NCBI GenBank assembly: GCA_045646995.1
Contig: JAZRLT010000055.1
Coordinates: 1-33,122, forward strand
DNA length: 33,122 bases
Direction of reading: 5' to 3'
From: Eubacteriales bacterium
Lineage (GTDB): Bacteria; Bacillota; Clostridia; Oscillospirales; CAG-382
Below the pieces are notes generated by a model. The model did no database searches. It was given only the letters and a program-made list of their open reading frames with translations, and was not told the DNA's origin. Position 1 is the stretch's first letter. Every line of letters begins with the position of its first letter. Of this stretch, positions 3 through 18,942 are shown one piece after another. Both the position numbers and the translations under genes were made by a program.

Positions 3-503
3 ATGTATTCCAACGTGTTCTACGGCGCTAACTTCGTTGATTATGTAGGATATAACGAGGACAAGCTTATTATGGTAAGCCCCGTTAACGGCGTTGGCTA
101 CGATTCCTACATCTGCGATCAGTACTTCGATTACAGAATTGAAGGACCCGCCGCTCCCGATGATATTACAGTTGCGGCTATCAAGGCGATCAAGCTTATC
201 CCCGAAAGAGTTTCCCTTGAGCATAAGGCTTTGGTCGAGGCGGCTCGTGCGGCTTACGATAAGATCGCTACTATTGAACAGCAAGCGTTGGTTACCAACT
301 ATTCCGACCTTATCTCCGCTGAACAGCGTATTGCGGCTCTCGCTCCCGAGGAAGAGGAAAAGGCTCCCACCGCTGAGGGCGGCTCGGGCGGTATCTTCGT
401 GGCACTTTTGGTGGTATTCGTTATCGTGTTCGTCGGATTTATCGTTTACAGAAACAAAAAAGAATCTTCCGATAATAACGGCGCTTCCGTTCAGCTGTCC
501 TGA
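3..503 (+). CDS. 3' end of a gene for a C-terminally membrane-anchored surface protein (5' end outside window)
   Basis: The ORF is open to the window edge. It ends with an acidic/Gly linker (APEEEEKAPTAEGGSGG), one hydrophobic helix (IFVALLVVFVIVFVGFIVY) and a basic stop-transfer (RNKK). It shares strand and codon style with the downstream cluster. Confidence 0.6.
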   Translation: MYSNVFYGANFVDYVGYNEDKLIMVSPVNGVGYDSYICDQYFDYRIEGPAAPDDITVAAIKAIKLIPERVSLEHKALVEAARAAYDKIATIEQQALVTNYSDLISAEQRIAALAPEEEEKAPTAEGGSGGIFVALLVVFVIVFVGFIVYRNKKESSDNNGASVQLS

Positions 504-1882: not shown

Positions 1883-1923
1883 TAATTACGTAATAAAAAA
1901 TAAAAATATAAAGGTGACACAGT

Positions 1924-4500: not shown

Positions 4501-4518
4501 ATTGATAATATAAAAATT

Positions 4519-4556
4519 CGACCGATAGGGAAGGCGTAAAAGCTTTCCCTCGGTCG
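4519..4556 (+). promoter_or_regulatory. Intercistronic stem-loop between the SBP and permease genes (possible partial attenuator or mRNA-stabilising hairpin)
   Basis: CGACCGATAGGGAA (4519-4532) pairs with TTCCCTCGGTCG (4545-4556) around a 12-nt loop with a 2-nt bulge. No U-tract follows, so it is not a canonical terminator. Confidence 0.4.
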
Positions 4557-4572
4557 GAGTTCGGAGTTACTG

Positions 4573-5565
4573 ATGCTTAAGTATATTTTAAAACGTCTTT
4601 TGATGTCCGTTTTCATACTTTTAGGCGTTTCGTTGATAATTTACTTCCTTATCCGTCTTATGCCCGTTGACTTTATCCAGGATAAGATCAACGCGATAAA
4701 CCAAGGCGGTGCGACGGTAAGTGAAGAAACCGTTAACGCTATGTATGAAATGTACGGGCTGGGCGATAACAGCTTTATCGGTATATTGAAGGGTTACTTC
4801 AGCTGGCTTGGCGCTATGGCAAGGTTTGACCTTGGTACGAGCTTTGTTTACGGTATCCCAGTTGCCGACGTTATCGTTGAACATATGGGAATATCCTTCG
4901 CTATCGCTTTGATAGCTACGATATTCGAATTTCTTATTGCTATCCCTCTCGGTATCACGGCGGCTACCCATCAATACAGCTTCCGCGATTACCTCGTTAC
5001 CGTTCTCGTTATGATCGGTATTTCTCTCCCGTCCTTCTTCTTCGGTCAGATGCTTAAGGACGTCCTTGCTCTCAAGCTTGGATGGTTCCCCGCGTCGGGA
5101 CTTGTCGATGCGACGGCGTCGTATACGGGTATAAGCCTTCTTATCGACTATTTGAAGCATTGCTTTATACCTATTCTTACGATAGTTATTCTCAGTATCG
5201 GTGCGAGAATGAGAATGACAAGAACGAATATGTTGGAGGTTATGAACTCCGACTATATCCGTACCGCCCGTGCAAAGGGCTTGAAGGAAAGCGTTGTCGT
5301 TAATAAGCACGCCTTCCGTAACACCCTTATTCCGATGGTAACCTCGCTTGCGGGCTTGTTGCCTTCGCTGTTTTCGGGTGCAATTATCACCGAGCAGGTA
5401 TTCGACCTTCCCGGTATCGGTAACATCGCTCTCGATGCGATGAACCGCGGCGATATTCCGTTTATAATGGGCTATAATATGTTCCTTGCGCTCTTAAGCG
5501 TAATCGGCGTTCTTCTCGCCGACCTTATGTACGGACTTGTCGATCCCCGTGTAAAACTTGAATGA
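4573..5565 (+). CDS. ABC transporter permease, OppB/DppB-like
   Basis: GGAG lies 7 nt upstream. The N-terminus MLKYILKRLL and the motif SDYIRTARAKGLKESVVVNKHAFRN (EAA loop region) are typical of the OppB/DppB family. The protein has multiple TM helices. Confidence 0.95.
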   Translation: MLKYILKRLLMSVFILLGVSLIIYFLIRLMPVDFIQDKINAINQGGATVSEETVNAMYEMYGLGDNSFIGILKGYFSWLGAMARFDLGTSFVYGIPVADVIVEHMGISFAIALIATIFEFLIAIPLGITAATHQYSFRDYLVTVLVMIGISLPSFFFGQMLKDVLALKLGWFPASGLVDATASYTGISLLIDYLKHCFIPILTIVILSIGARMRMTRTNMLEVMNSDYIRTARAKGLKESVVVNKHAFRNTLIPMVTSLAGLLPSLFSGAIITEQVFDLPGIGNIALDAMNRGDIPFIMGYNMFLALLSVIGVLLADLMYGLVDPRVKLE

Positions 5566-5576
5566 GGAGGCGCGTG

Positions 5577-6647
5577 ATGGAAGATATTACCAAAGAAGCT
5601 ATCGAAGGCGAAGTTGATACCAAAGCGGTTGAAACCGAAGAAATCGATACCGACGTGCCTTTAGATAAAACCGTCAAGCTTATGTCCCCGACGCGTATGG
5701 TCGTTCGTAGATTTTTCCGCTCGAAGCTTAGTATCGTCGGTCTAATAATGGTCGTAAGCCTTTTCGTGTTCAGCTTTATCGGTCCCCTTGTCTATACTCA
5801 ATGGGGCGAAATCGAGCTTGATGAAAGCGGTAAGACCGAATATTCGGTCTCCCAAACCACTTATACGGTAAACGGTAAGGAATATACCCTTCGCCAGACT
5901 ACCGAAAAATCTCTTAAGGATAATTTCCTTGCTCCCCCCTCTGCCGAGCATATTCTCGGTACTGATAACGAAGGCTACGATATTTTCGTCCGTCTTATGT
6001 ACGGTGGTAGAATTTCTCTTATCGTAAGCTTTCTCGCCGTTTTCCTTATTACCGTTTTGGGCGTGTTCCTCGGCGGTGTTGCGGGATTCTTCGGCGGTGC
6101 GGTAGATAATATAATAATGCGACTTTGCGATATTCTTATCTGCCTTCCCGGTATTCCGATCCTTCTTATTATAAGTACGATCCTCGACGCGTCCGAAATC
6201 GACGCTAAATACCGTATCTACCTTCTTATGATTTATCTTACCTTTATTTCTTGGCCGGGTACTGCCCGCCTTGTAAGAGGTCAGATACTCTCTCTCCGTG
6301 AACAGGAATATATGGTTGCGGCGGAGGCTATGGGCTATTCCGCTCCCAGAAAGATATTTAAGCATCTCGTTCCCAACGTTATGCCTCAGCTTATCGTTTC
6401 GATGAGCTTGAGCTTGGGTAGTATGATTCTTTACGAAGCTACTCTTTCGTATTTGAACCTCGGCGTTAAAGCTCCCTACGCCGCTTGGGGTACGATGATC
6501 AATATTATCTCCACTAATCAGGATATTCTCCAGAATCACCTTAACGTATGGGTTCCCGCAGGTATCTGTATCGTTATCGCGGTTCTCGGCTTTAACTTTA
6601 TCGGCGACGGTCTCCGCGACGCGCTCGACCCGAAAGCGAGGAGGTAA
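5577..6647 (+). CDS. ABC transporter permease, OppC/DppC-like, with an extended N-terminal and extracytoplasmic loop region
   Basis: AGGAGG at 5566-5571 favours ATG 5577 over the ORF-track ATG 5562. The motifs HILGTDNEGYDIFVRLMYGGRISL and EQEYMVAAEAMGYSAPRKIFKHLVPN are OppC-type signatures. Confidence 0.9.
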   Translation: MEDITKEAIEGEVDTKAVETEEIDTDVPLDKTVKLMSPTRMVVRRFFRSKLSIVGLIMVVSLFVFSFIGPLVYTQWGEIELDESGKTEYSVSQTTYTVNGKEYTLRQTTEKSLKDNFLAPPSAEHILGTDNEGYDIFVRLMYGGRISLIVSFLAVFLITVLGVFLGGVAGFFGGAVDNIIMRLCDILICLPGIPILLIISTILDASEIDAKYRIYLLMIYLTFISWPGTARLVRGQILSLREQEYMVAAEAMGYSAPRKIFKHLVPNVMPQLIVSMSLSLGSMILYEATLSYLNLGVKAPYAAWGTMINIISTNQDILQNHLNVWVPAGICIVIAVLGFNFIGDGLRDALDPKARR

Positions 6648-6650
6648 ATT

Positions 6651-7808
6651 ATGAGTAAAAATAATGTAAACCGCCTCACCGGTAAAGAGATTCGCGCTAT
6701 TGCGAAGGAAAATAAGAAAATCATTAAAAAGTTAGAGGCGTATAAAAATCGTAAATGCGACGAGACCGAATATCTCGGCCATATGTCCGACGAATCCAAT
6801 ATCCTTGAAATCGATAATCTTCATACCTACTTCTTCACCGAACAGGGTGTCGTAAAGGCGGTCAACGGCGTTTCCTTCGACGTTCCCAAGAATACGACGG
6901 TCGGTATCGTTGGCGAATCGGGTTGCGGTAAGTCGGTTACGAGTATGTCGGTAATGCGCCTTATACAAGGCCCCGCAGGTCAGATTTTTTCGGGCAGTAT
7001 CCGCTTTAACGCGAAGACTGCTTCGGGTGAATCGAAGGTATATGATATCGCGAAAATGCCTATGCGCGATATCCATAAGATTCGCGGTGACCAGATCGCT
7101 ATGATATTCCAAGAGCCTATGACCTCGCTAAACCCCGTGTTTACTATCGGTCAACAGCTCGATGAGGTTACGTTTATTCATAACCCCAACGCTACTAAAG
7201 AGGAAGCAAAGGCAAAATCGATAGAGATGCTCGACCTTGTCGGCATCGCTATCCCTGAACGTGTTTATAATTCCTTCCCCCATGAGCTTTCGGGCGGTAT
7301 GCGTCAAAGAGTTATGATCTCTATGGCGCTTGCAAGCAATCCCCGCCTTATTATCGCCGACGAGCCCACTACCGCGCTCGACGTTACGATTCAGGCTCAG
7401 ATACTCGATCTTCTCCGCGATTTGAAGTCTAAAATCGACGGCTCTATAATGCTTATCACCCACGACCTCGGTATAATCGCCGAAATGGCTGATTACGTTG
7501 TCGTAATGTATGCGGGAAGAGTTATCGAAAAGGGTACTGTTGAAGAGATTTTCCATAATCCTCTCCACCCATATACGATAGGACTCCAAAAGTCCAAACC
7601 CACTCTTAATTCCGACAGCGATACGCTGTTCAATATCCCCGGTAACGTACCTAATCCGGTAAATATGCCGAATTACTGTTACTTCAAGGAAAGATGCTCT
7701 AAATGTATTAAAAAATGTTCCGGCGATTATCCCGGAATGGTTCAGGTAAGCCCGACTCATTTTGTGGCTTGCCACCTTTACGGAGAGGAGGCTGAGAATA
7801 ATGGCTGA
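6651..7808 (+). CDS. ABC transporter ATP-binding protein, OppD/DppD-like, with a ~50-aa basic N-terminal extension
   Basis: GGAGG RBS is present. It has Walker A GESGCGKS, signature LSGGMRQR, Walker B LIIADEPTTALD and an H-loop ITHDL. The C-terminal oligopeptide-ATPase Cys motif is CYFKERCSKCIKKC...VACH. Confidence 0.95.
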   Translation: MSKNNVNRLTGKEIRAIAKENKKIIKKLEAYKNRKCDETEYLGHMSDESNILEIDNLHTYFFTEQGVVKAVNGVSFDVPKNTTVGIVGESGCGKSVTSMSVMRLIQGPAGQIFSGSIRFNAKTASGESKVYDIAKMPMRDIHKIRGDQIAMIFQEPMTSLNPVFTIGQQLDEVTFIHNPNATKEEAKAKSIEMLDLVGIAIPERVYNSFPHELSGGMRQRVMISMALASNPRLIIADEPTTALDVTIQAQILDLLRDLKSKIDGSIMLITHDLGIIAEMADYVVVMYAGRVIEKGTVEEIFHNPLHPYTIGLQKSKPTLNSDSDTLFNIPGNVPNPVNMPNYCYFKERCSKCIKKCSGDYPGMVQVSPTHFVACHLYGEEAENNG

Positions 7809-8796
7809 TCAGATCAAGAACGAACAACCTATTCTCGAGGTGCGTAACCTCCGTAAATGCTTCCCTTTGAAGAAGACTCTTACAGGTAAGGTTACAAGCG
7901 AGCTCGTCGCTGTCGATAACGTTTCGTTTACGCTTAATGCGGGCGAAACTCTCGGTATCGTTGGCGAATCGGGTTGCGGTAAGACTACTCTCGGAAGAAC
8001 TATTCTTAAGCTTCACGAATCCTCGGGAGGTCAGATTTTCTTCGACGGTAAGGATATTACGAACCTTAAGTCTTCTCAAATGCGCGAGATTCGTAAGCAA
8101 ATGCAGATAATCTTTCAGGACCCCTATTCCTCGCTTCCTCCCCGAAGCACGGTCGGCGGTATCCTTTCCGAGCCCGTAGAGGTTCATAATATCGTTCCTA
8201 AGAGCGAGGTCAAGTCCTACGTGCTTGATTTGATGGATAAATGCGGTCTACGCGATTATTACTATGAAAGATATCCCCACGAATTTTCAGGCGGTCAGCG
8301 TCAGCGTATTTGTATCGCTCGTGCGCTTTCCGTAAAACCCAAGCTTGTTATCTGCGACGAACCCGTTTCGGCTCTCGACGTTTCGATTCAGGCACAGATA
8401 ATCAATCTTCTTAAACAACTTCAAAAGGATATGAACCTTACCTACGTGTTCATATCCCACGACCTTTCGGTCGTTAAGTTCATTTCGGATAAGATCGGCG
8501 TTATGTATCTCGGCTCTATGGTCGAGTTCGGTAATAAGGAGGATATCTTCTCTAATCCTCTCCATCCGTATACTCAAGCGCTCTTCTCGGCTATACCCCA
8601 GCCGGACCCTGATGTAAAAATGAACAGAATTATTCTTAAGGGCGATATTCCTTCGCCTGCGAATCCTCCTAAGGGATGTCGATTCCATACCCGTTGTCCT
8701 TACGCTAAGGATATCTGTAAGGAAGTCGTTCCCGAATATAAGGATTACGGTAACGGTCATTGTGCCGCTTGCCACTTGTTGGAAGAAACCACATAA
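7801..8796 (+). CDS. ABC transporter ATP-binding protein, OppF/DppF-like
   Basis: GGAGAGGAGG precedes ATG 7801 (MADQIKNE); the ORF-track start at 7762 is a TTG inside the upstream gene. It has Walker A GESGCGKT, signature FSGGQRQR and Walker B LVICDEPVSALD. The C-terminal Cys motif is GCRFHTRCPYAKDIC...HCAACH. Confidence 0.95.
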   Translation: MADQIKNEQPILEVRNLRKCFPLKKTLTGKVTSELVAVDNVSFTLNAGETLGIVGESGCGKTTLGRTILKLHESSGGQIFFDGKDITNLKSSQMREIRKQMQIIFQDPYSSLPPRSTVGGILSEPVEVHNIVPKSEVKSYVLDLMDKCGLRDYYYERYPHEFSGGQRQRICIARALSVKPKLVICDEPVSALDVSIQAQIINLLKQLQKDMNLTYVFISHDLSVVKFISDKIGVMYLGSMVEFGNKEDIFSNPLHPYTQALFSAIPQPDPDVKMNRIILKGDIPSPANPPKGCRFHTRCPYAKDICKEVVPEYKDYGNGHCAACHLLEETT

Positions 8797-8812
8797 TTAA
8801 AGGTATAAGTAA

Positions 8813-9055
8813 ATGAGTAAGAAAGAAAAAAAGGAAAAGCCTATATATATCGACGACGGAAGAACTATTGCCGATATGTCGGGCGTTTCGGGAGGTCTTC
8901 CCGAATGGACTAAACACGGCACTACCTCGAGTGTAAAGGATATTCTGCGTACCTATTTCGGTGCGATGAGGATGATGCTCCTTCCGACTCTTGCGATAGT
9001 AGGACTTCTTCTTGTTGCCTTTCTTATAGTTTCGCTTATCTTTATTGCTATGTAA
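8813..9055 (+). CDS. Small (80 aa) tail-anchored membrane protein of unknown function
   Basis: A weak RBS (AAAGGT) is present. The N-terminus is Lys/Glu-rich (MSKKEKKEKP). A single C-terminal hydrophobic stretch (LLPTLAIVGLLLVAFLIVSLIFIAM) runs to the stop codon. It is tightly packed between the ATPase and thioredoxin-lipoprotein genes. Confidence 0.55.
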   Translation: MSKKEKKEKPIYIDDGRTIADMSGVSGGLPEWTKHGTTSSVKDILRTYFGAMRMMLLPTLAIVGLLLVAFLIVSLIFIAM

Positions 9056-9092
9056 CTTTAAATTTATCCCCTTGATATAAAAGGAGAAATTT

Positions 9093-11888
9093 ATGAGAAA
9101 TCTTAAATCATTTATGCCAAGAAGCCTCGTTTCGATGATTGCGCTTCTTCTTGCGGTAGTTTTCTGTATGTCGGCGCTCGTTTCTTGCGATAACGGCGGA
9201 GATGAAAGCAGTAACACCTCCGGTTCGGAAGCATCAGGCGAAAAGGCTACCTACACCGTAAGCGTTAAATCTAACGGCGGTGTTCCTCTTTCCGGTCTTG
9301 ATATCTATATCTATAAGGGCGCGGAATTGAAGGATATGAAGGAATTCTCCAAAACCAACGAAAACGGCGAGATAACCTTCAGTCTTCCCAAGAGCGACGA
9401 TTACTTCATCGTTGTTTCGGGCGCACCCAAGGGCTACAAGGTTGAGAAAAGCTATGGATTTGTAGGTACCTCCTCGGCGATAGTTCTTACCTCTTCGCTC
9501 GTTACCGGAGAGGATATCTCGACCGCTCAGCTCGGAATCGGTGACGTTATGTATGATTTCACCGTTATGAATTCCGAAGGTCAGGAAGTAAAGCTTTCCG
9601 AGGTGTTCAAAACTAAAAAGCTCGTCGTTCTTAACTTCTGGTATACTACTTGTAGCTGGTGTCTCGAGGAATTCCCCCTTATGGAGGAGCTTTATCGCGA
9701 CTATAAGGAAGACGTTGAAATTATCGCGCTCGACCCGCTCGACGACGCTAATGCCGTCAAGAGCTTCCGCGCTCAGCACGGTCTTTCCTTCCCGATGGCG
9801 GCTTGTCCTTCCTCTTGGTCGGCTGTGTTCGGCGTTCAGGGTTATCCTACCTCGGTATTTATCGACCGCTACGGTACTATCTGTATCGTTGAATCGGGCG
9901 CTATCACAAGCAAGCGTCCTTGGATAAGCGCGTTTGACCATTTCACCGCTGATAATTACAAGCAAAAGATCTGTACTAACGGTATCGGAGACCTTGTTTC
10001 TCAGGTTAAGCCTACCTATACTATGGATACTACCGAAAATATCTCCGCTCTTATCAATAACGGCGATATTGAGGTTACCTACCGTGCGGAGACCGATTCC
10101 GATACTGCCGAATTCACTTGGCCCTTTATTGCGGGCGAAAAGCTCGGCGAGAACTGTATCTACGCTTCCAATAAGGGTATCGACGGTTCCTACGCTATTA
10201 TTTACGCTGACGTGACTCTTAAAAAGGGTCAGGCAGTAGGATTCGATTATCTCGTTTCCTCTGAATACGGCTGCGACATAATGTACGTAATCGTTGATGA
10301 CGACGATATCTACCAGATCTCGGGCGTTTCCGATAAGGAGGAATGGAAGTCCTGCTATCCCTGCGTAGCCGAAGAGGATGGCACCTACGAGATCGCGCTC
10401 TGCTTCCTTAAAGATGAGGACGGTACCGAGGGCGACGACACCGTGTATATCAAGAATATGCGTGTCGTTGACGAAAAGGACATCGATACCGATTCCTATT
10501 TGCCCCGTTATGCGGCTACGAGCGAGGATGGATTCGAGTTCGATTACGTTGACGTAGTATTCAACGAAAAGGACGGATATTACCACGTCGGCTCGGCTAA
10601 CGGACCTCTTCTTCTCGCTGACCTTATGGGATATACCCAGTTCAATGAAGAAAAATCCGTTTTCGATATCGTTACTGCGGGAGACGCTGATAAGGGCGGA
10701 GTAAGCCTTTATAATAAGGTTGCCGAAGGCGGCTTGGGAATGGTTGATTACTTCTCCTATGCTTCCAATTCTCGACTTAACGGTGTTTGTACCGTAAATA
10801 AAGAGCTCGGCGAAATGCTAAAGCAGGTTGCTGAGGTTGCAGGCTTTGAGGATGATTCCAACGAATGGCTTAAGATATGTAAATATTTCAAGGCATACGG
10901 CAAGGGCAATACTCAGCTTGAGGACCCGATAAAGGGACTTGCTACCTTCAGCGCGTATGAAACTAAGCTCGGCAAGAACGTTTCTACTAACTATTTCCAA
11001 TACGATAGAGCGATCATCCCGAGAGGTATGTTCTCTCGCTTCACTCCTTCTAAGTCGGGCGTTTACCGTTTCAGCTCCAAGAGCGATTATGCCGAGGGCA
11101 TAGATGCTTGGATCTTTAATGAAAAGGGCGAAATAATTTACACCTATGAGCTTTCCGAAAGAATGTGGAGCGATTCGAATAACTGTTCCATGGTATACTA
11201 TATGGAAGCAGGTAAGTCCTATTATATTAATATGGCGTTCTGGGACGTTTATGCTACCGGTAGAATCAACTATGACGTTGAATATCTTGGAGCTACCTAT
11301 AAGCTCTTCCGTTCGGCTTCTCCCGGATACTTTACCTATGATTCCGACGCTACCGGAGAGGTAATGTACGACGTTATAAGCGGCGGTATAACCCCTGTAT
11401 TGAAGGATGGCAAGTATTACGACTCCGAGGACGGAAGCCTTATTTACGCTGACTTTACCGGTGTTACCAACCTCTTTGGACATTCTATCGTTGAAATGAT
11501 AGAAATGGGCGGCTTCGACTTCAGCAAGTCTGAAACCGACGGTGAGGTTCTCGCATATCTCAAACAGAATGATAACGACGTAGAAAAAACCAAGGAATAC
11601 CTCAAAAAGCTTTGGGGCGAGGAATACGACGCTAACGCCGACATCTATCAGCTCGAAGACGTTTTTTCCGGAAGATATCACGGAAAGGGCGAAGATCTTA
11701 CCGAAGAAATTCGCGCTTATAAGAGCAAGATGGATAAGTCCTCTACCGAAAAGGACGGATGTGTTGTTGTCGATGAGCGCTTGGTTGAAATACTCCAAAA
11801 GCTTATGGATAAATATACCTTTGAGGGTGTTGAAAACTCTTGGCTCAAGGTGTGCTACTACTATGACTACCTCGGACCGGCTAAATAA
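9093..11888 (+). CDS. Multidomain lipoprotein (931 aa): prealbumin-like beta-sandwich, TlpA/ResA-like thioredoxin fold (CSWC), jelly-roll-like domain, PPC-like domain and two copies of the uncharacterised DGYYH/W-x3-C-Y module
   Basis: RBS AAAGGAG is present and the lipobox is LVSC. The beta-sandwich is YTVSVKSNGGVPLSGLDIYIYKG...GAPKGYKVE. The thioredoxin fold is LVVLNFWYTTCSWCLEEFP...GVQGYPTSVFIDRYG, with the CxxC codons at 9651-9662. Module copies lie at about 10572-10890 and 11410-11870. Confidence 0.9.
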   Translation: MRNLKSFMPRSLVSMIALLLAVVFCMSALVSCDNGGDESSNTSGSEASGEKATYTVSVKSNGGVPLSGLDIYIYKGAELKDMKEFSKTNENGEITFSLPKSDDYFIVVSGAPKGYKVEKSYGFVGTSSAIVLTSSLVTGEDISTAQLGIGDVMYDFTVMNSEGQEVKLSEVFKTKKLVVLNFWYTTCSWCLEEFPLMEELYRDYKEDVEIIALDPLDDANAVKSFRAQHGLSFPMAACPSSWSAVFGVQGYPTSVFIDRYGTICIVESGAITSKRPWISAFDHFTADNYKQKICTNGIGDLVSQVKPTYTMDTTENISALINNGDIEVTYRAETDSDTAEFTWPFIAGEKLGENCIYASNKGIDGSYAIIYADVTLKKGQAVGFDYLVSSEYGCDIMYVIVDDDDIYQISGVSDKEEWKSCYPCVAEEDGTYEIALCFLKDEDGTEGDDTVYIKNMRVVDEKDIDTDSYLPRYAATSEDGFEFDYVDVVFNEKDGYYHVGSANGPLLLADLMGYTQFNEEKSVFDIVTAGDADKGGVSLYNKVAEGGLGMVDYFSYASNSRLNGVCTVNKELGEMLKQVAEVAGFEDDSNEWLKICKYFKAYGKGNTQLEDPIKGLATFSAYETKLGKNVSTNYFQYDRAIIPRGMFSRFTPSKSGVYRFSSKSDYAEGIDAWIFNEKGEIIYTYELSERMWSDSNNCSMVYYMEAGKSYYINMAFWDVYATGRINYDVEYLGATYKLFRSASPGYFTYDSDATGEVMYDVISGGITPVLKDGKYYDSEDGSLIYADFTGVTNLFGHSIVEMIEMGGFDFSKSETDGEVLAYLKQNDNDVEKTKEYLKKLWGEEYDANADIYQLEDVFSGRYHGKGEDLTEEIRAYKSKMDKSSTEKDGCVVVDERLVEILQKLMDKYTFEGVENSWLKVCYYYDYLGPAK

Positions 11889-11917
11889 GCCGATATTTTG
11901 AAGAAAGAAGGGTAGTA

Positions 11918-13168
11918 ATGAAAACCAAAAGATTTTTAAGCCTTATAACGGCTGCCGTGCTTCTCTGCACGGCGGTCGTCCTCGGCGCTTGTAACGATAG
12001 CGGCGAGTCGAGCCTTCCTGCCGAAATGGAATATAAGGTTAACGTAAAAGATGCTCTCGGTAACGTTCAAAGTGCGGGCGTTATCGTTAAGTTCTTGAAG
12101 AACGGCGAGCAGGTTGCTATGGAGACCTGCGCGGAAAACGGAACCGTGGCGAAGACTCTTGCTACGGCTGAATATGATATCGAGCTTGCGTTTACTGCGG
12201 GTGCCGACGCTTTCTATTACGAAGCGGGTAAGGTTACCCCCGAAAAGACCGAGATCGATATGATCGTTTCCGCTAAGGTTACCTCCGAACCCCAAACAAT
12301 TAACGTAGGCGCCGATGAATACGATATGTATTATGTTGACGGCGGATGTACCTACGTCGAGCTTTCTACCGAAAAGCGTAACTATTTTGCCTTCGCTCCC
12401 AAGGCGTCGGGTAAATATAAGTTTTCGGTTATCGGCGCCGCTGACGTCAAGCTCGGATACCACGGCGCTCCCCATTTCGTTCAGGAAAACAATATCGCCG
12501 AAATGACCGACGGATATTTTTGTATTTCCGTCAGAGACGGTATGATAGGAACGGGTGATACCGGTACCGCGACCTACGTTATCGGTATTGATGCCGAAAG
12601 CACAAAGAATTGTATTCTTGCTATCGAGCGTATCGGAGACCCCGAAAAGTCCGTTGAGGACGAGCCTTGGACGGTCTATAAGACCACCGTCGAGTTGAAG
12701 GAATACGATCTCCCCGAGGGCGCGGCTCTTAAGGAATTCGATCTTACTGCTTCTACCGACACCTATAACCTCGTCTTTAACGAGGCCGACGGCTTCTATC
12801 ATCTTAATTCCGCCGACGGTCCTCTCGTGCTCGTTCGTCTTGATGAGGATAGCGATTATATCGCTTCCTTCGGTACGATGCTCGAGCGCTCGGGTCTTTC
12901 TAAGTATTTCTACGACGATAAGGGCGAGTTCGTTAAGAGAGAAAGCTATTCCGAATGTATAACCGAATATCTCGAATACGTAGACCTTAACGAGGGCGTT
13001 TACCCTATGACCGAAGACCTTAAGTATATTATTCAACAGCGCGGCGATTATGTCGGCTGGTGGAACCCCGAAAGCTCTTCATATATCTTTAAGGATATGA
13101 ACGGTAATAACCTTACCGATATTAATAACGAAATAGCTTGGCTTCTTATGAGCTGCTATATCGAATAA
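11918..13168 (+). CDS. Lipoprotein (416 aa): prealbumin-like beta-sandwich, PPC-like domain and the uncharacterised DGFYH...TEDL...W-x3-C-Y module
   Basis: RBS AAGGG is present and the lipobox is LGAC. The beta-sandwich is YKVNVKDALGNVQSAGVIVKF. The PPC-like region is YFAFAPKASGKYKFSVIGA. The module is FNEADGFYHLNSADGPLVLVRL...YPMTEDLKYIIQQ...AWLLMSCYIE. Confidence 0.85.
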   Translation: MKTKRFLSLITAAVLLCTAVVLGACNDSGESSLPAEMEYKVNVKDALGNVQSAGVIVKFLKNGEQVAMETCAENGTVAKTLATAEYDIELAFTAGADAFYYEAGKVTPEKTEIDMIVSAKVTSEPQTINVGADEYDMYYVDGGCTYVELSTEKRNYFAFAPKASGKYKFSVIGAADVKLGYHGAPHFVQENNIAEMTDGYFCISVRDGMIGTGDTGTATYVIGIDAESTKNCILAIERIGDPEKSVEDEPWTVYKTTVELKEYDLPEGAALKEFDLTASTDTYNLVFNEADGFYHLNSADGPLVLVRLDEDSDYIASFGTMLERSGLSKYFYDDKGEFVKRESYSECITEYLEYVDLNEGVYPMTEDLKYIIQQRGDYVGWWNPESSSYIFKDMNGNNLTDINNEIAWLLMSCYIE

Positions 13169-13177
13169 GGTATGGTT

Positions 13178-14038
13178 ATGAGAAATAATAAGAAATGTTT
13201 TATCGCGTTACTGATACTCGCTTGTTTATGTGTTTCGATGGCTTTGTCGGGTTGCGAAAGCTCGGTAGAACCGTCCGATGATTCCGTATCGGGGGACTAT
13301 CAGTATGCGGTTAAGGTCGTTACCGAGGGCGGAATGCCCTTGGCTAACGTTCAGGTTAAGGTTTTTAACCGCGGAGACAGTCTTGTTTTTGCGGGATATA
13401 CCGATAAAGAGGGAAGTCTTACCTTCGCTTCTCCGCAATATGGTCTTAATGCGGTGCTTTCCGAGCTCCCTAAGGGTTATCGATGCGACGCTGCACAACC
13501 CTTGAACGAAAAGGAAAACAAGATCGTTGTAAAAACCTTTTTTGTAGGTACCGATATAGTCGGTAATAAATATACGCTCGGAAGCATTGTCGATGACTTT
13601 TCGGTTACCGCAGTAAACGGAAAAACCTATAAGGTTTCCGAGTTACTCGAAACCAAGAAAGCTGTCGTGCTTAACTTCTGGTTCGAGAATTGCGGACCCT
13701 GCCGAATGGAATTTCCTTATCTTAACGAGGCGTATAACGAGTATAAGGATAAACTTGAGGTTATTGCGATAAGCCCTGTTGACAGCGAAAACGCCGTTTC
13801 CGCTTACGCAAAGGATATGAAGCTTGATTTTCCGATGGTTTCGGCAAATCTCGAATGGGAACAAGCCTTCGGATTCGGCGGATATCCCACGACGGTTGTT
13901 ATAGACCGCTACGGAATGGTAGCCATGATGCATACCGGCGCGGTTACCGACAAGGAAGCGTTTGCTTCGATGTTCGAGCATTTTACTTCGGACGAATATA
14001 AACAAGGCGTTGTAAAAAATCTCAGCGAACTCAAATAA
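13178..14038 (+). CDS. Lipoprotein: prealbumin-like beta-sandwich fused to a TlpA/ResA-like thioredoxin fold (CGPC)
   Basis: TAAGGT spacing favours ATG 13178; ATG 13172 is an alternative. The lipobox is LSGC. The beta-sandwich is YAVKVVTEGGMPLANVQVKVF...LPKGYRCD. The thioredoxin fold is AVVLNFWFENCGPCRMEFP...GFGGYPTTVVIDRYG, with the CxxC codons at 13691-13702. Confidence 0.9.
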   Translation: MRNNKKCFIALLILACLCVSMALSGCESSVEPSDDSVSGDYQYAVKVVTEGGMPLANVQVKVFNRGDSLVFAGYTDKEGSLTFASPQYGLNAVLSELPKGYRCDAAQPLNEKENKIVVKTFFVGTDIVGNKYTLGSIVDDFSVTAVNGKTYKVSELLETKKAVVLNFWFENCGPCRMEFPYLNEAYNEYKDKLEVIAISPVDSENAVSAYAKDMKLDFPMVSANLEWEQAFGFGGYPTTVVIDRYGMVAMMHTGAVTDKEAFASMFEHFTSDEYKQGVVKNLSELK

Positions 14039-14057
14039 ATATAAGGGGTATCTTAAA

Positions 14058-15197
<1,140 letters not shown>

Positions 15198-15252
15198 TAA
15201 AATACAAAAATTTGATGCGATTAAACATAATCAAATTGAAGGGAGAACAAAA

Positions 15253-15684
15253 ATGAAAAGAATTTTGTTTGTCTTGCTCGCTTTGACTTTGGTGTTCGGT
15301 CTTTGCGCTTGCGCTACTACTACCGACGTAAGTAAGGCGCCTTCCGATGCCGACGTCAGCAAGACCGAATCCAAGGAAGAATCCAAAGAGGCTTCCAAGG
15401 AAGAATCCACCCCTGCTTCGCTTCCTGAATTTGTAGTCAAGGTTGTTGACGCCGAGGGTAACCCTGTTGAAGGTGCTATGATTCAGGTATGTAAAGATAC
15501 CTGCGTTCCTATGAAGAGTAATGCTGAAGGTAAGGCAATATTCAATATTACCGTTACCGACGGCTATAAGCTTTCTGTTCTTGCTTGTCCCGCAGGCTAT
15601 GAATATACCGGCGAAGCCGAGGTTTATTTGGAAAGCGGAATTACCGAATATACCGTAGAATTGGCGAAGGTAGTTTCCGAATGA
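15253..15684 (+). CDS. Small lipoprotein (143 aa) consisting of a signal, a K/E/S linker and a single prealbumin-like beta-sandwich module
   Basis: GAAGGGAG RBS lies before ATG 15253; the ORF-track start at 15184 is a GTG overlapping the upstream gene. The lipobox is LCAC. The module is FVVKVVDAEGNPVEGAMIQVCKD...CPAGYEY. Confidence 0.8.
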   Translation: MKRILFVLLALTLVFGLCACATTTDVSKAPSDADVSKTESKEESKEASKEESTPASLPEFVVKVVDAEGNPVEGAMIQVCKDTCVPMKSNAEGKAIFNITVTDGYKLSVLACPAGYEYTGEAEVYLESGITEYTVELAKVVSE

Positions 15685-16730
15685 AAAAAATAACTTTCGT
15701 GCTTTTTCTGGTGTCGGTAGTTGCTTTTGCGATGATTTTGGGCGCTTGTAACGATTCTTCGGATAATAGCTCTTCGGTGGATAATTCCGTAAATGGATCT
15801 ACCTCCGTTTCGTCGGGTAATAACTCCGAAAACGTTTCCGGCTCTGCTGATAACGACGCGTCGAATGACGCTTCCTTCGAGTCGGGCGTAAACGCTTCCG
15901 ACGGAGTAAGTGACGCCACCGACGAAAGCGATAATTCGGATGTTGTTGATAATTCCGACGAGGATAATACCTCCGATGGAAGCGAAAACTCCGATGAAAG
16001 CGACGAATCCGATAATAACGGCGCGTCCGACGACAGCACTGTTCCCGACGACAGCTCGGATGAAAGCTCTGAACCCGAGGTTGTCGGAAGCGGAACCGAG
16101 GCTGATCCTTATTTGGTTATTCCGGATGAGGATATGCATCTTGTAACCGTAAATATCCCCGCAGGTAAAGACGTATATTACAACATTTACCGTGTCGGCG
16201 GAATGAATCTTAAGATTAAGTCCAAAGACGTTTACATCATTTATGACGGAAAGACCTATAACCCTAAAAGCGGAACCTTGTCGCTCTCGATTGAAGATGC
16301 TATGGCGAGTGAAGCAATTTCTTTCCGAATAGGCAATAACGCTTCAAGCGAGCAATCCTTCGAGCTTGTCTTCTCCAACCCGACCGGTTCTTATATGAAC
16401 CCCACCAAGGTGGATGATCTCAAGGATGAAAATTTCATCGAGCTCGAGGCGGATAACGCTGTCGGCCATTACTATAAGTATATTGCCGAAAAGAAGGGTA
16501 CTATTGTATTCGCTATGTCCGCTACCGCTGACAGCACTTTGTCAGTTACCAATAACCGCAACTCCGCCCAGAGAACTACCGAAGCGGACGGCTCGGCTGA
16601 CGGCGACGTGAAATACGTCGAGATCGAGGTCGAAAAGGGCGACGAATTGATTATTAACGTCGGCGCTCTCCCGAATCGACGCGGTAAGTATCCTGCAACC
16701 GATATCACTTGGTCTGCTGAATACAAATAA
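15681..16730 (+). CDS. Lipoprotein (349 aa) with a ~110-aa Ser/Asp/Asn-rich linker and two PPC-like beta-sandwich modules
   Basis: An ATGA start/stop overlap joins it to the upstream gene. The lipobox is LGAC. The modules start at GSGTEADPYLVIP and PTGSYMNPTKVDDL. The HYYKYIAEKKGTIVF-type strand resembles modules in the dockerin protein. Confidence 0.8.
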   Translation: MKKITFVLFLVSVVAFAMILGACNDSSDNSSSVDNSVNGSTSVSSGNNSENVSGSADNDASNDASFESGVNASDGVSDATDESDNSDVVDNSDEDNTSDGSENSDESDESDNNGASDDSTVPDDSSDESSEPEVVGSGTEADPYLVIPDEDMHLVTVNIPAGKDVYYNIYRVGGMNLKIKSKDVYIIYDGKTYNPKSGTLSLSIEDAMASEAISFRIGNNASSEQSFELVFSNPTGSYMNPTKVDDLKDENFIELEADNAVGHYYKYIAEKKGTIVFAMSATADSTLSVTNNRNSAQRTTEADGSADGDVKYVEIEVEKGDELIINVGALPNRRGKYPATDITWSAEYK

Positions 16731-16736
16731 TTCCCC

Positions 16737-16765
16737 TTGCGCATAATGAAAAATTGTGCTAAACT
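16737..16765 (+). promoter_or_regulatory. Candidate sigma-A promoter for the dockerin-protein gene
   Basis: TTGCGC (16737-16742), a 17-nt spacer, then an extended -10 TGcTAAACT (16757-16765). It lies in the largest gap (91 nt) of the cluster. Confidence 0.3.
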
Positions 16766-16821
16766 GTTGAAGTAATGCTATGGAAAATAGCTTTACAAAT
16801 AAAATTTATAAGGAGAAACTC

Positions 16822-18894
16822 ATGAAAAACACTATGAAAAAAGCTCTTAGCTTGCTCGTGGTTTTCGCTATGGTTTGCGTTCCTATGATCGCAAGTGCAG
16901 CTGTTGGTGATGGCGTGGCTATGCCCAGCGATTGCATTTATAGCGGCGATTACGTAACTGTTGAAGCCGGCGCTACTACCTACTTTGAAATCGGTACCGG
17001 TATGACCGCAGGTACCTATGGCTTCGTTGTTGAAGGCGAAGGCGATTTTGACGTTGCTGTTTGTACCGAAGGCAACGGCGAATATCCTTACGCTGAAGGC
17101 GAAGCTGTTTCTGCTGTTGATGGCGTTGTTGAAACCGAAATCACCAGCTTTGAAAGCACTTATAACTACGCTGCTTTCGCTATCACCAACAACAGCGAAA
17201 ACGATGTTGACTACCTCGTAACTATCCTCTTCCCCGAAGGAACTCAGGATAACCCCAAGGCTGTTACTCTCGCTGTCGGAACCCCTGTTGAGGTTACCAT
17301 CGCAGCAGGCGTAACCTACTATATCGGCGCTTCTCTTCCTATGATGAACACCGAATATAATCTTACCGTTACCGGTGCCCCCGGCTTCTATTACGGCGGC
17401 GGTATGATGAGACCCAGCCCTGACAACAATGGTACCTACACCGCTACCGTTTCCGCTTCTATGTTCAGTGGCGGTATGGCAAACTTCAATATCTCTAACG
17501 GTACTGAAGAAGAACAGACCTATACTCTTACCCTTGAAAATATGCCTGCAGGCGCTTCTGAAGGTAACCCCGAAATCATCGAAGTATCCGATTTTTACAC
17601 CACTTCGTTCTCCGAGCATTTCTACTCCTTCACCGCTACCGAATCCGGAACCTTCACCGTTTCTATGTCTTCTGAAGAAGGCTGGATGTATCAGATCAAC
17701 GGTATTACCGCAGATTATGATTACTACTACGGCGATATGCACTGGTGTGACGACGATCCCGTTGTTATGTCCGAATCTATCGACGTAAACGCAGGTGACG
17801 TATACACTATTTACGTTGGTTCTTATATGTCCGACGAAATGGTTTACTGGTCCTTCAATTTCGAAGCTAAGACTCTTGGCGAAAAGCCCCTTTACAACGA
17901 AAACGGCGCTGACGGCTACCTTTCCGTAACCGATTCCTATGTTGATTACGATATGAATGGTGATTTCGTATACACCATCTTGGAATTCACCCCTGACGAA
18001 GCAGGTAACTATATTATCGATCTCGCAGGCGGCGCGATGGCAGGTATCGTTTCCTACAACGGTATGTGGGTTACTATCGAACCCTCCGCTGATGTTGTAA
18101 ATATGTCTACTATTGAGTGGGAATGCACCAGCGTTGGTCAGACTATCTGGGTTGCAGTTATTGCTGAAACCGAAACCGTTTCTATCAACGTTTCCTATGA
18201 AGAAGTTGTTGTTGTAGTAATTCCCGAATATGATTACGAAAACGTTGTAACTCCCGAGGAATTCGTATACAACGGCGATACCGCTGACTTCGATTACGTT
18301 GAAACCTTTGACGATATCGTTGATAACGCGGTTCTCGGTGATGATGGCTACTACCACCTCAACTCTGCTGACGGCCCCGTTCTCTTCGCTTGCCTCAACG
18401 ATGACCTTATGTCTCTCGTAGGCGCAAACACCTACGGTCAGCTTACTTACGTTGAATATGACGAAGATGGCAACGTGGTTTCCAAGACTCATTATGCAAT
18501 CGCATTCGAAGAATATGCAGCTTGCGCTTACACCGATGATGCGGGCTATATGTACTATCCTCTTACCGAAGACCTTATCGTTATGTTCCAGAACGTTGGC
18601 GCTAATAACGGCTGGTATGGCGAAAACGGATTCGTAGGCGGCGATATCGAAGATGCTTGGATGTTCGCTTGCTACTATGACGAAGAAGTTACCACTATCG
18701 AACCCGTTGTTGAACCCGAATACGACCCCAACGGCGACGGCGAATTCAATATGTTCGACTATGTATTCGTTAAGGCTACCGTTCTCAGCAACGATGCTTC
18801 CGAAGAAGAAATCGCTGCTGCTGACGTAAACGGCGACGGCAAGCTTAATATGTTCGACTATATTGCTGTTAAGTCTGCATATTTCGCAATCTAA
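16822..18894 (+). CDS. Secreted dockerin-bearing protein with several PPC-like modules and one DGYYH...TEDL...W-x3-C-Y module
   Basis: AAGGAGA RBS lies before ATG 16822 (MKNTMKKALS). The signal peptide has an ASA-type cleavage site and no lipobox. The module is DDGYYHLNSADGPVLFACL...YPLTEDLIVMFQ...AWMFACYY. The C-terminal dockerin has duplicated segments DPNGDGEFNMFDY and DVNGDGKLNMFDY. Confidence 0.9.
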   Translation: MKNTMKKALSLLVVFAMVCVPMIASAAVGDGVAMPSDCIYSGDYVTVEAGATTYFEIGTGMTAGTYGFVVEGEGDFDVAVCTEGNGEYPYAEGEAVSAVDGVVETEITSFESTYNYAAFAITNNSENDVDYLVTILFPEGTQDNPKAVTLAVGTPVEVTIAAGVTYYIGASLPMMNTEYNLTVTGAPGFYYGGGMMRPSPDNNGTYTATVSASMFSGGMANFNISNGTEEEQTYTLTLENMPAGASEGNPEIIEVSDFYTTSFSEHFYSFTATESGTFTVSMSSEEGWMYQINGITADYDYYYGDMHWCDDDPVVMSESIDVNAGDVYTIYVGSYMSDEMVYWSFNFEAKTLGEKPLYNENGADGYLSVTDSYVDYDMNGDFVYTILEFTPDEAGNYIIDLAGGAMAGIVSYNGMWVTIEPSADVVNMSTIEWECTSVGQTIWVAVIAETETVSINVSYEEVVVVVIPEYDYENVVTPEEFVYNGDTADFDYVETFDDIVDNAVLGDDGYYHLNSADGPVLFACLNDDLMSLVGANTYGQLTYVEYDEDGNVVSKTHYAIAFEEYAACAYTDDAGYMYYPLTEDLIVMFQNVGANNGWYGENGFVGGDIEDAWMFACYYDEEVTTIEPVVEPEYDPNGDGEFNMFDYVFVKATVLSNDASEEEIAAADVNGDGKLNMFDYIAVKSAYFAI

Positions 18895-18913: not shown

Positions 18914-18942
18914 AAAAAGGTGCTCGTAAGAGCACCTTTTTT
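18914..18942. terminator. Bidirectional intrinsic terminator between the convergent cluster end and spoIVB
   Basis: AAAAAGGTGCTC-GTAA-GAGCACCTTTTTT: a 7-bp GC-rich stem flanked by an A-run and a T-run. Confidence 0.8.

What the first reader, a model, noticed from the sequence alone, without database searches (positions are those of the whole stretch)
18721..18894. Dockerin on a non-enzymatic-looking protein links the cluster to a cohesin scaffold
Seen: the last ~57 aa of the 704-aa protein contain two calcium-loop segments, DPNGDGEFNMFDY and DVNGDGKLNMFDY. They are encoded by near-identical 33-nt direct repeats at 18730-18762 and 18829-18861, exactly 99 nt apart. Established: duplicated DxNxDGxxNxxD segments define dockerins, which bind cohesins of cellulosome- or amylosome-type scaffolds. 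I could recognise no glycoside-hydrolase signature in the rest of the protein. It consists of PPC-like modules plus the same unknown module found in the thioredoxin lipoprotein. Inference: part of this system may be displayed on the scaffoldin, while its paralogs are lipid-anchored.
Basis: partly seen in the sequence, partly recalled or inferred. Interest (0 to 1): 0.6.

Follow-up and report, generated by a model that had tools for sequence, protein, structure and literature searches.

The report
Dockerin-anchored surface protein, non-cellulosomal system
The last gene of a conserved protease, peptide-importer and thioredoxin gene cluster in an uncultured gut Clostridia bacterium encodes a non-enzymatic protein ending in a genuine dockerin "plug", which most likely hangs it on wall-anchored cohesin "sockets" of a display system that carries no cellulases or amylases; this is real but a fairly ordinary use of a known module.

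Summary
The ORF at 16780-18894 (+) probably starts at 16822 and gives 690 aa. It ends in a type I dockerin (Pfam PF00404, E 5e-10) with two canonical calcium loops 99 nt apart.

The rest of the protein is a signal peptide, four beta-sandwich modules and a roughly 160-aa module. That module has no Pfam, NCBIfam or PDB relative, and it recurs in two neighbouring lipoproteins.

The genome is a 66%-complete MAG. It holds about 40 dockerins and at least 8 divergent cohesin modules. A close relative has the matching cohesin followed by a sortase sorting signal.

None of the dockerin proteins is a cellulase or an amylase. They carry LRR, GH25, amidase, CHAP, GDSL, subtilase and similar domains, so the system is a non-cellulosomal surface display.

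Orthologs of this gene sit in the same conserved cluster (S8 envelope protease, Opp importer, thioredoxin lipoproteins). They carry a dockerin, a sortase signal or choline-binding repeats at the C-terminus. The dockerin is therefore one of several interchangeable wall anchors.

Cohesin binding and the ligand remain untested. I rate this a new member of a known kind, of modest interest.

The parts
554..18894 (+). Co-directional cluster: lipoprotein (442 aa), family-5 SBP, OppBCDF, three thioredoxin-fold lipoproteins (931, 288 and 379 aa), lipoproteins of 416, 144 and 349 aa, and the dockerin protein as last gene. The C-terminal 166 aa of a membrane-anchored giant protein lie upstream at 3-503.
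   Evidence: Pfam scans. Synteny is conserved in loci L006-L013. In L012 the ortholog of the upstream protein is a >2322-aa protein with S8 subtilase, PA, Fn3_5, Big and LRR domains.
16809..16814 (+). Ribosome-binding site AAGGAG, 7 nt before ATG 16822
   Evidence: Sequence.
16822..18894 (+). Gene for the dockerin protein (690 aa from the likely start; the longest ORF starts at 16780 and gives 704 aa)
   Evidence: ORF list. Ortholog N-termini. RBS.
16822..16899 (+). Signal peptide MKNTMKKALSLLVVFAMVCVPMIASA, signal-peptidase-I type, with no good lipobox
   Evidence: Sequence. Helix 2-23 in the model. The cleavage site is my reading of the sequence.
16909..18207 (+). Four tandem beta-sandwich modules (aa 30-137, 140-241, 245-350, 360-462 of the 690-aa protein)
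   Evidence: AlphaFold2 model with mean pLDDT 83. Foldseek gives only generic jelly-roll arrays: neuropilin, ColG collagen-binding domain 5iku, HA70. One stretch resembles the 349-aa lipoprotein.
18217..18699 (+). Module of about 160 aa and unknown fold (DGYYHLNSADGP ... YPLTEDL ... WMFACYY), shared with the 416-aa and 931-aa lipoproteins
   Evidence: HMM matches and alignment A3. Model pLDDT 92, pTM 0.88. No PDB fold match, best E 0.59. 1149 representative clusters in the public library at E <= 0.001.
18721..18891 (+). Type I dockerin. Calcium loops at 18724-18759 (DPNGDGEFNMFD) and 18823-18858 (DVNGDGKLNMFD).
   Evidence: Pfam PF00404 at E 5.3e-10. Genome scan. DNA repeat. Three helices at aa 644-655, 661-667 and 677-689, pLDDT 61-72.
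18914..18941 (+). Intrinsic terminator-like hairpin closing the operon
   Evidence: Scan.

Best explanation
The gene encodes a secreted, apparently non-catalytic protein made of four beta-sandwich modules and one module of unknown fold. Its C-terminal type I dockerin acts as a calcium-dependent, non-covalent cell-surface anchor. The dockerin would plug into a cohesin on one of the genome's scaffoldin-like proteins. At least one of these is, judging from a close relative, covalently fixed to the wall by sortase. The protein would then sit beside its lipid-anchored paralogs, the membrane-anchored subtilase and the Opp peptide importer encoded in the same operon. There it most likely helps to capture or present the substrate of that proteolytic, disulfide-reducing, peptide-import system.

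Shown: the dockerin, the cohesins, the conserved operon, the absence of any known enzyme domain, and the anchor swapping among orthologs. Inferred: actual cohesin binding, which cohesin is the partner, wall anchoring of this genome's own scaffoldin, and the substrate-capture role.
For: - The dockerin scores above the Pfam cut-off. Both calcium loops are canonical. The two repeats agree at positions 10, 11 and 17 (M, F, K), as in dual-binding dockerins.
- The genome has about 40 dockerins of one flavour, DxNGDGKxNMFDY. This one belongs to a subgroup of 8 and is 75% identical to the dockerin on C238.
- At least 8 cohesin-like modules lie on contigs C21, C154 and C20. Their profile finds solved cohesins: 5lxv_A at 4.5e-5 and 4uyp_A at 1e-4.
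- In relative G001, a cohesin 70% identical to the third C21 cohesin is followed by an (SEDS)n linker and the sorting signal KTPETGDASS + hydrophobic stretch + KSRK.
- The window's genome has two sortases and proteins with the same kind of tail.
- Positional orthologs in the same cluster end in a dockerin (L006, L008-L010), a PxTG[DA] sorting signal (L007, L011, L012 and many P-ids) or choline-binding repeats (P0014, P0019).
- On a tree of 44 orthologs the anchor type is clustered. Dockerin needs 3 changes against a shuffled mean of 14. The sortase state lies on both sides of the midpoint root.
- No enzyme or CBM family was found.
Against: - No binding data exist, and no cohesin can be assigned to this dockerin subgroup.
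- The model of the dockerin part has only moderate confidence (pLDDT 61-72).
- The one cohesin protein of this genome that could be wall-anchored is cut by the contig end. Its anchoring therefore rests on a relative.
- Only about 8 cohesin modules were found for about 40 dockerins, and the genome is 66% complete.
- The substrate-capture role rests on operon context alone.
- The beta-sandwich modules could still be an undescribed carbohydrate-binding family.
Confidence: 0.7

Rival explanations
1. It is a component of a true polysaccharide-degrading cellulosome or amylosome. The beta-sandwich modules and the unknown module would be novel carbohydrate-binding modules that target the complex to fibre or starch.
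For: Jelly-roll beta-sandwiches are the usual CBM fold, and Foldseek finds such arrays. A GH36 alpha-galactosidase lies 10 kb downstream in the window. A third of the genome is missing.
Against: Among the 40 dockerin or cohesin proteins scanned, none matches a cellulase, xylanase or amylase family. The families found are LRR_5, F5/8-C, GH25, SH3, GDSL, GHL10, S8, amidase, CHAP and 5'-nucleotidase. No CBM was detected on the scaffoldins. The gene is fixed in an operon with a subtilase, a peptide importer and thiol-disulfide oxidoreductases. The GH36 gene is on the far side of divergently oriented sporulation genes.
Confidence: 0.1
2. The dockerin-like tail does not bind a cohesin. It would serve as a calcium-dependent stabilising or EF-hand-like element, or bind another partner such as a wall polymer, the unknown module of the lipoprotein paralogs, or another dockerin.
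For: Dockerin-like modules occur in many genomes without cohesins (my recollection of Peer et al. 2009, listed as reference 34 of PMC2930009; the paper itself could not be read). Calmodulin EF-hands score almost as well as solved dockerins against this 64-aa tail. Dockerins outnumber the detected cohesins about 5 to 1.
Against: The Pfam dockerin score is above threshold. About 40 near-identical C-terminal modules occur on unrelated secreted proteins, together with cohesin genes in the same genome. Orthologs replace the tail with bona fide wall anchors.
Confidence: 0.1
3. The protein is docked on the adaptor scaffoldin (the 1140-aa C21 protein with two cohesins, Cys-rich repeats and its own dockerin). 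It would act in a cell-free or loosely attached complex rather than next to the operon's membrane proteins, so its operon membership would be regulatory only.
For: The 1140-aa protein has cohesins and a dockerin of the same NMFDY type. This is the architecture of adaptor scaffoldins.
Against: Orthologs with a sortase signal or choline-binding repeats are fixed directly to the wall. That argues that proximity to the cell is what is conserved.
Confidence: 0.1

Closest known systems
Dockerin-bearing proteins of unknown function, and group-4 dockerins that bind the sortase-anchored ScaE cohesin, in Ruminococcus flavefaciens FD-1 (PMC2930009; PMC5301203)
   Same: A signal peptide, non-enzymatic or unknown modules and a C-terminal dockerin. 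FD-1 has 118 dockerin proteins with 155 unknown domains, plus LRR and peptidase cargo. Group-4 dockerins, including a peptidase-Doc and an unknown protein, bind ScaE, which is fixed to the wall through LPXTG and sortase, and they show internal symmetry.
   Different: The host genome here shows no cellulases or hemicellulases with dockerins. The dockerin flavour (NMFDY in both repeats) and the cohesins are divergent: Pfam Cohesin scores are only 17-34 bits. The cargo belongs to a protease, Opp and thioredoxin operon.
Non-cellulosomal cohesin-dockerin systems (Peer et al. 2009, listed as reference 34 of PMC2930009; described from my own knowledge, the paper was not readable here)
   Same: Cohesin and dockerin modules used for protein display or assembly without plant-cell-wall enzymes.
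   Different: Those surveys list modules. Here the dockerin protein is tied to a defined conserved operon, and its orthologs show dockerin, sortase and choline-binding anchors in exchange.
Lactococcal proteolytic system: PrtP cell-envelope proteinase plus Opp oligopeptide importer (my own knowledge, not tested here)
   Same: A giant S8 subtilase with PA and Fn3-like domains, anchored to the envelope, encoded with an Opp-type ABC importer.
   Different: The lactococcal system has no thioredoxin-fold lipoproteins, no beta-sandwich accessory proteins and no dockerin. The parallel concerns the operon, not the dockerin protein.
Ruminococcus bromii amylosome (my own knowledge)
   Same: A gut Clostridia cohesin-dockerin system with few scaffoldins and a few dozen dockerins in a small genome.
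   Different: Amylosome dockerins sit on GH13 amylases and starch-binding proteins. No GH13 appears among the matched families listed for the dockerin proteins.

Membership tests
Type I dockerin (Pfam PF00404) | Profile match above the curated cut-off | tested here: met
   39.8 bits against a cut-off of 22.9, E 5.3e-10. 44.8 bits in the genome scan.
Type I dockerin (Pfam PF00404) | Two duplicated segments of about 22 residues, each with a 12-residue calcium loop (D/N at positions 1, 3, 5, 9 and D at 12) followed by a helix | tested here: met
   DPNGDGEFNMFD and DVNGDGKLNMFD lie 33 residues apart. Helices follow each loop in the model at aa 644-655 and 677-689, pLDDT 61-72.
Type I dockerin (Pfam PF00404) | Carried by a secreted protein, usually at the C-terminus | tested here: met
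   N-terminal signal peptide, and the dockerin forms the last 57 residues.
Type I dockerin (Pfam PF00404) | A cohesin partner encoded in the same genome | tested here: met
   Cohesin matches on C21 (3 proteins, 5 modules), C154 and C20. Their profile hits solved cohesins.
Type I dockerin (Pfam PF00404) | Calcium-dependent high-affinity binding to a cohesin | not testable with these tools
   Needs recombinant Coh/Doc ELISA or a microarray. No complex prediction tool was available.
Cellulosome / amylosome component | Dockerins carried by cellulases, hemicellulases or amylases in the same genome | tested here: not met
   The matched families listed for the 40 dockerin or cohesin proteins include no GH5/9/48/10/11/13 (only the first 25 of 38 matched families are listed). 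Caveats: the genome is 66% complete, and dbCAN was not available.
Cellulosome / amylosome component | Scaffoldin with several cohesins plus a substrate-binding CBM | tested here: not met
   The scaffoldin-like proteins have 1-2 cohesins each and no Pfam CBM. One has Cys-rich zinc-ribbon-like repeats instead.
Known CAZyme or CBM family (N-terminal 640 aa) | Sequence or fold match to a catalogued family | tested here: not met
   No Pfam or NCBIfam hit and no PDB sequence hit. Foldseek gives only generic beta-sandwich arrays for the whole model and nothing for the unknown module. dbCAN itself was not run.
ScaE-type sortase-anchored cohesin display | A cohesin protein ending in an LPXTG-like signal, a hydrophobic stretch and a basic tail, plus a sortase gene | tested here: inconclusive
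   Met in relative G001, where a 70%-identical cohesin is followed by KTPETGD...KSRK. The window genome's copy is cut by the contig end. That genome has two sortases and the same tail type on other proteins, including an orphan tail at the start of C69.

The most novel reading that the evidence does not exclude
In this lineage of small-genome gut Clostridia, the cohesin-dockerin system would assemble a protein-harvesting surface machine rather than a carbohydrate-degrading one. The dockerin-tagged beta-sandwich protein would capture disulfide-rich host or dietary proteins. It would hand them to the lipid-anchored thioredoxin-fold reductases and the envelope subtilase, and the Opp importer would take up the peptides. 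That would be the first cohesin-dockerin complex tied to a defined proteolytic and peptide-uptake pathway. The shared module of unknown fold would be its substrate-binding or partner-binding unit.
Probability: 0.2. Interest if true: 0.55.

Novelty: new member of a known kind. Interest (0 to 1): 0.33.

Why it matters
Dockerins are usually read as flags for cellulosomes or amylosomes. In this case that reading would mislead. The dockerin is one of several interchangeable wall anchors (dockerin, sortase signal, choline-binding repeats, lipid) used by a widespread, undescribed family of surface proteins. The family is tied to an envelope protease, a peptide importer and extracellular thioredoxins in uncultured gut Clostridia.

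The finding gives a concrete and cheap experiment: one dockerin tested against about eight cohesins. It also places a module of unknown fold, found in 1149 representative clusters, at the cell surface. The principle itself, non-enzymatic dockerin cargo on non-cellulosomal scaffolds, is already known, so the gain is incremental.

Tried and rejected
1. I tested whether relatives whose ortholog has a sortase signal lack dockerins. They do not. All 8 related genomes have 8-53 dockerins whatever the ortholog's anchor, so this comparison does not discriminate.
2. The full-length Foldseek search gave only low-TM generic beta-sandwich arrays. I do not read the neuropilin, Cry or HA70 hits as homology.
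3. A PDB sequence search with the family profile gave nothing meaningful.
4. The 64-aa tail hits calmodulins almost as well as solved dockerins. I rejected the EF-hand reading because of the Pfam score, the genome-wide dockerin family and the cohesins.
6. Peer et al. 2009 (PMC3035643) is not held. It is named only through the reference list of PMC2930009.
7. No tool allowed a cohesin-dockerin complex prediction, so no partner could be assigned.
8. The classification of anchors among 145 further family representatives used simple regular expressions. Its counts are approximate: 48 lipoprotein, 32 sortase-like, 8 dockerin, 1 choline-binding, 56 unassigned or fragmentary.
Full report
**Observation.** The longest ORF over the finding is 16780-18894 (+), 704 aa. 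Its last 57 residues read YDPNGDGEFNMFDYVFVKATVLSNDASEEEIAAADVNGDGKLNMFDYIAVKSAYFAI. The two 12-residue loops (18724-18759 and 18823-18858) both fit the dockerin calcium loop D-x-N-x-D-G-x-x-N-x-x-D. The underlying DNA repeat has a start-to-start spacing of 99 nt. Pfam Dockerin_1 matches aa 648-698 at E 5.3e-10 and 39.8 bits, against a cut-off of 22.9. A scan of the whole genome recovers the same site. One correction: an AAGGAG site lies 7 nt before ATG 16822, and orthologs start at MKNTMKK. The protein is therefore most likely 690 aa. It has a signal-peptidase-I type signal peptide (...PMIASA/AVG) and is the only non-lipoprotein among the cluster's exported proteins. A terminator-like hairpin at 18914-18941 follows the stop codon.

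**Anatomy of the protein.** An AlphaFold2 model built on 27 homologs (mean pLDDT 83) shows the following parts:
- four beta-sandwich modules (aa 30-137, 140-241, 245-350, 360-462);
- an alpha/beta module (about aa 466-626);
- a low-confidence linker;
- a three-helix dockerin (aa 644-689, pLDDT 61-72).

Apart from the dockerin, nothing matches Pfam or NCBIfam or any PDB sequence. Foldseek with the whole model returns only generic jelly-roll arrays with TM below 0.35: neuropilin, the ColG collagen-binding domain 5iku at E 1.8e-6, and HA70. 'PPC-like' is therefore true only as a fold class.

I modelled the alpha/beta module alone from an alignment of window and locus sequences (A3). The model is confident (pLDDT 92, pTM 0.88), yet it has no structural relative in the PDB (best E 0.59). 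The same module occurs in the 416-aa lipoprotein and the 931-aa thioredoxin lipoprotein of the window. A profile search finds it in 1149 representative protein clusters. dbCAN itself could not be run.

**Is there a cohesin scaffold?** The window's genome is a MAG of 1.6 Mb in 242 contigs, 46% G+C and 66% complete. It holds about 40 dockerins and cohesin matches on three contigs. Contig C21 carries three cohesin proteins:
- a 769-aa protein with two cohesins;
- a 1140-aa protein with two cohesins, a long run of Cys-rich repeats and its own dockerin;
- a protein with one cohesin after three N-terminal repeats, cut off by the contig end.

C154 and C20 each carry small cohesin-plus-dockerin proteins. 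Individual Pfam scores are weak (17-34 bits). However, a profile of nine of these modules (A4) finds solved cohesins in the PDB: R. flavefaciens ScaC 5lxv_A at 4.5e-5 and A. cellulolyticus ScaC 4uyp_A at 1e-4.

In relative G001, whose cluster proteins are 60-97% identical to the window's, a cohesin 70% identical to the truncated C21 cohesin is followed by an (SEDS)n linker. It ends in KTPETGDASSLIVFAVLALIALAGSAVVIKSRK, an LPXTG-like sorting signal. The window's genome has two sortase genes. It has the same type of tail on other proteins, and an orphan tail lies at the very start of contig C69. A sortase-anchored cohesin scaffold is therefore likely here, but this is inferred by homology.

**What kind of system is it?** I scanned the 37 other dockerin ORFs (the window's own was scanned) together with the dockerin-less 769-aa C21 cohesin protein and the C21 cohesin protein cut by the contig end, 40 proteins in all, against Pfam. 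Besides the dockerin, the families found are BspA-type LRR, F5/8 type C, GH25 lysozyme, SH3, GDSL lipase, GHL10, subtilase, 5'-nucleotidase, GDPD, glucosaminidase, amidase_3, CHAP, NAGPA and Ig-like domains. No cellulase, xylanase or amylase family appears. This is a non-cellulosomal surface-display system, not a cellulosome or an amylosome.

Nearly all dockerins share one flavour, DxNGDGKxNMFDY in both repeats. The window's dockerin falls in a subgroup of eight. These have Y/x-D-x-N-G-D-G-x-F-N in repeat 1, a linker one residue shorter, and a ...AYF ending. The closest is 75% identical. Both repeats carry M10, F11 and K17. That symmetry is usually linked to dual-mode binding; this is my inference.

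**Context and relatives.** The gene is the last of a co-directional cluster (554-18894). The cluster comprises a lipoprotein, a family-5 solute-binding protein, OppBCDF, three thioredoxin-fold lipoproteins and three further lipoproteins. The partial ORF at the window start ends in a membrane anchor. In locus L012 its ortholog is a protein of more than 2322 aa with S8 subtilase, PA, Fn3_5, Big and LRR domains. That is the architecture of a cell-envelope proteinase.

The cluster is conserved in eight MAGs from human, goat, sheep and buffalo gut. In every case the last gene is the ortholog of the dockerin protein, but its C-terminus differs:
- a dockerin in L006 and L008-L010;
- a PxTG[DA] signal with a hydrophobic stretch and a basic tail in L007, L011 and L012;
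- among database homologs, also choline-binding repeats (P0014, P0019).

I built a maximum-likelihood tree of the conserved core of 44 orthologs. Anchor type is strongly clustered: all labels need 4 changes, against a shuffled mean of 15.7. The sortase state occurs on both sides of the midpoint root. Dockerin forms one clade of 14 (support 92/95) plus two smaller groups. It needs 3 changes, although the well-supported branches force only 1. The choline-binding pair is nested inside a sortase clade.

Among 145 further representatives of the unknown-module family, a rough classification gives 48 lipoproteins, 32 sortase-type, 8 dockerin and 1 choline-binding. The C-terminal module is thus an exchangeable surface anchor. 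The dockerin is the version used by the window's sub-lineage. All eight related genomes have 8-53 dockerins whatever anchor this protein uses.

**Mechanism.** The best-supported reading has three steps. The protein is exported by Sec. Its dockerin binds, with calcium, a cohesin of a scaffoldin that is itself fixed to the wall, directly by sortase or through the dockerin-bearing adaptor. The non-catalytic beta-sandwich and unknown modules are thereby held at the surface, next to the lipid-anchored paralogs, the envelope protease and the peptide importer. A substrate-capture or substrate-presentation role is an inference from operon membership and shared modules only.

Three rivals each get about 0.1:
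- novel CBMs in a true fibre- or starch-degrading complex;
- a dockerin-like tail that does not bind a cohesin;
- docking on the adaptor scaffoldin in a looser, cell-free complex.

**Comparison with what is known.** Dockerins on non-enzymatic or unknown proteins are well documented. R. flavefaciens FD-1 has 118 such proteins with 155 unknown domains, plus LRR, peptidase and serpin cargo. Its authors already suggested roles outside cellulose degradation, including structuring the cell surface (PMC2930009). Group-4 dockerins of that organism, including a peptidase-Doc and an unknown protein, bind the sortase-anchored ScaE cohesin and are internally symmetric (PMC5301203). Earlier notes of this scan also list hundreds of non-cellulosomal cohesin-dockerin display loci. 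Those are unchecked leads, but they agree that the kind is common.

What is specific here is threefold: the link of a dockerin cargo to a conserved protease, Opp and thioredoxin operon; the documented exchange of dockerin, sortase and choline-binding anchors among positional orthologs; and the confident but unmatched fold of the module next to the dockerin. I found no paper describing this operon.

**Verdict.** It is a new member of a known kind, of modest interest.

Noticed in passing
G000 contig C21:8405-11827 (locus L026); also L040, L042, L045: The 1140-aa scaffoldin-like protein carries many tandem Cys-rich units between its cohesins and its dockerin. They alternate between CENDQTCTVCGDVL and DCENGGYTTHTCxNCGDTYTD, with a weak Zn_Ribbon_1 hit. 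Shorter runs of the same repeat precede the dockerin in at least three cargo proteins. It may be a zinc-binding rigid spacer specific to this lineage's dockerin system.
   Followed up: partly
G000 C21:15004-17082 (L053) and C69:1-72; relative G001 C58 / C90 (L054, L057): The cohesin protein with three N-terminal repeats of about 110-aa runs off its contig inside a repetitive PSE/SEDS linker, in both the window's genome and the relative. An orphan sorting-signal tail (SMIVFAIIALVAIAGSAVVVKTRR) starts contig C69. The scaffoldin is probably split by assembly breaks in the repeats.
   Followed up: partly
window 18217-18699, 12659-13165, 10410-10892: The shared module of unknown fold has invariant Y, G-Y-H, G-P, W and C-Y positions across 22 copies. 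It occurs in 1149 representative clusters at 50% identity in the public library, mostly as lipoproteins or sortase substrates. No Pfam family covers it.
   Followed up: partly
window 3-503 and locus L012:14657-21623: The partial ORF at the window start is the C-terminus, with a membrane anchor, of a giant protein carrying S8 subtilase, PA, Fn3_5, Big and LRR domains. Together with the Opp genes, this resembles a cell-envelope-proteinase and peptide-uptake system.
   Followed up: partly
homologs P0004, P0006, P0008, P0014: Orthologs differ by whole-module insertions and duplications: an extra module of about 145 aa in P0004 and L006, an F5/8 type C domain in P0005 and P0006, and duplicated beta-sandwich pairs in P0008 and P0014. 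L008-L010 keep only the last beta-sandwich, the unknown module and the dockerin (353-357 aa).
   Followed up: no
window 18742-18747 and 18841-18846: The only variable hexamer inside the two otherwise identical 33-nt dockerin repeat cores is GAATTC in one copy and AAGCTT in the other (EcoRI and HindIII sites). This is almost certainly coincidence.
   Followed up: no
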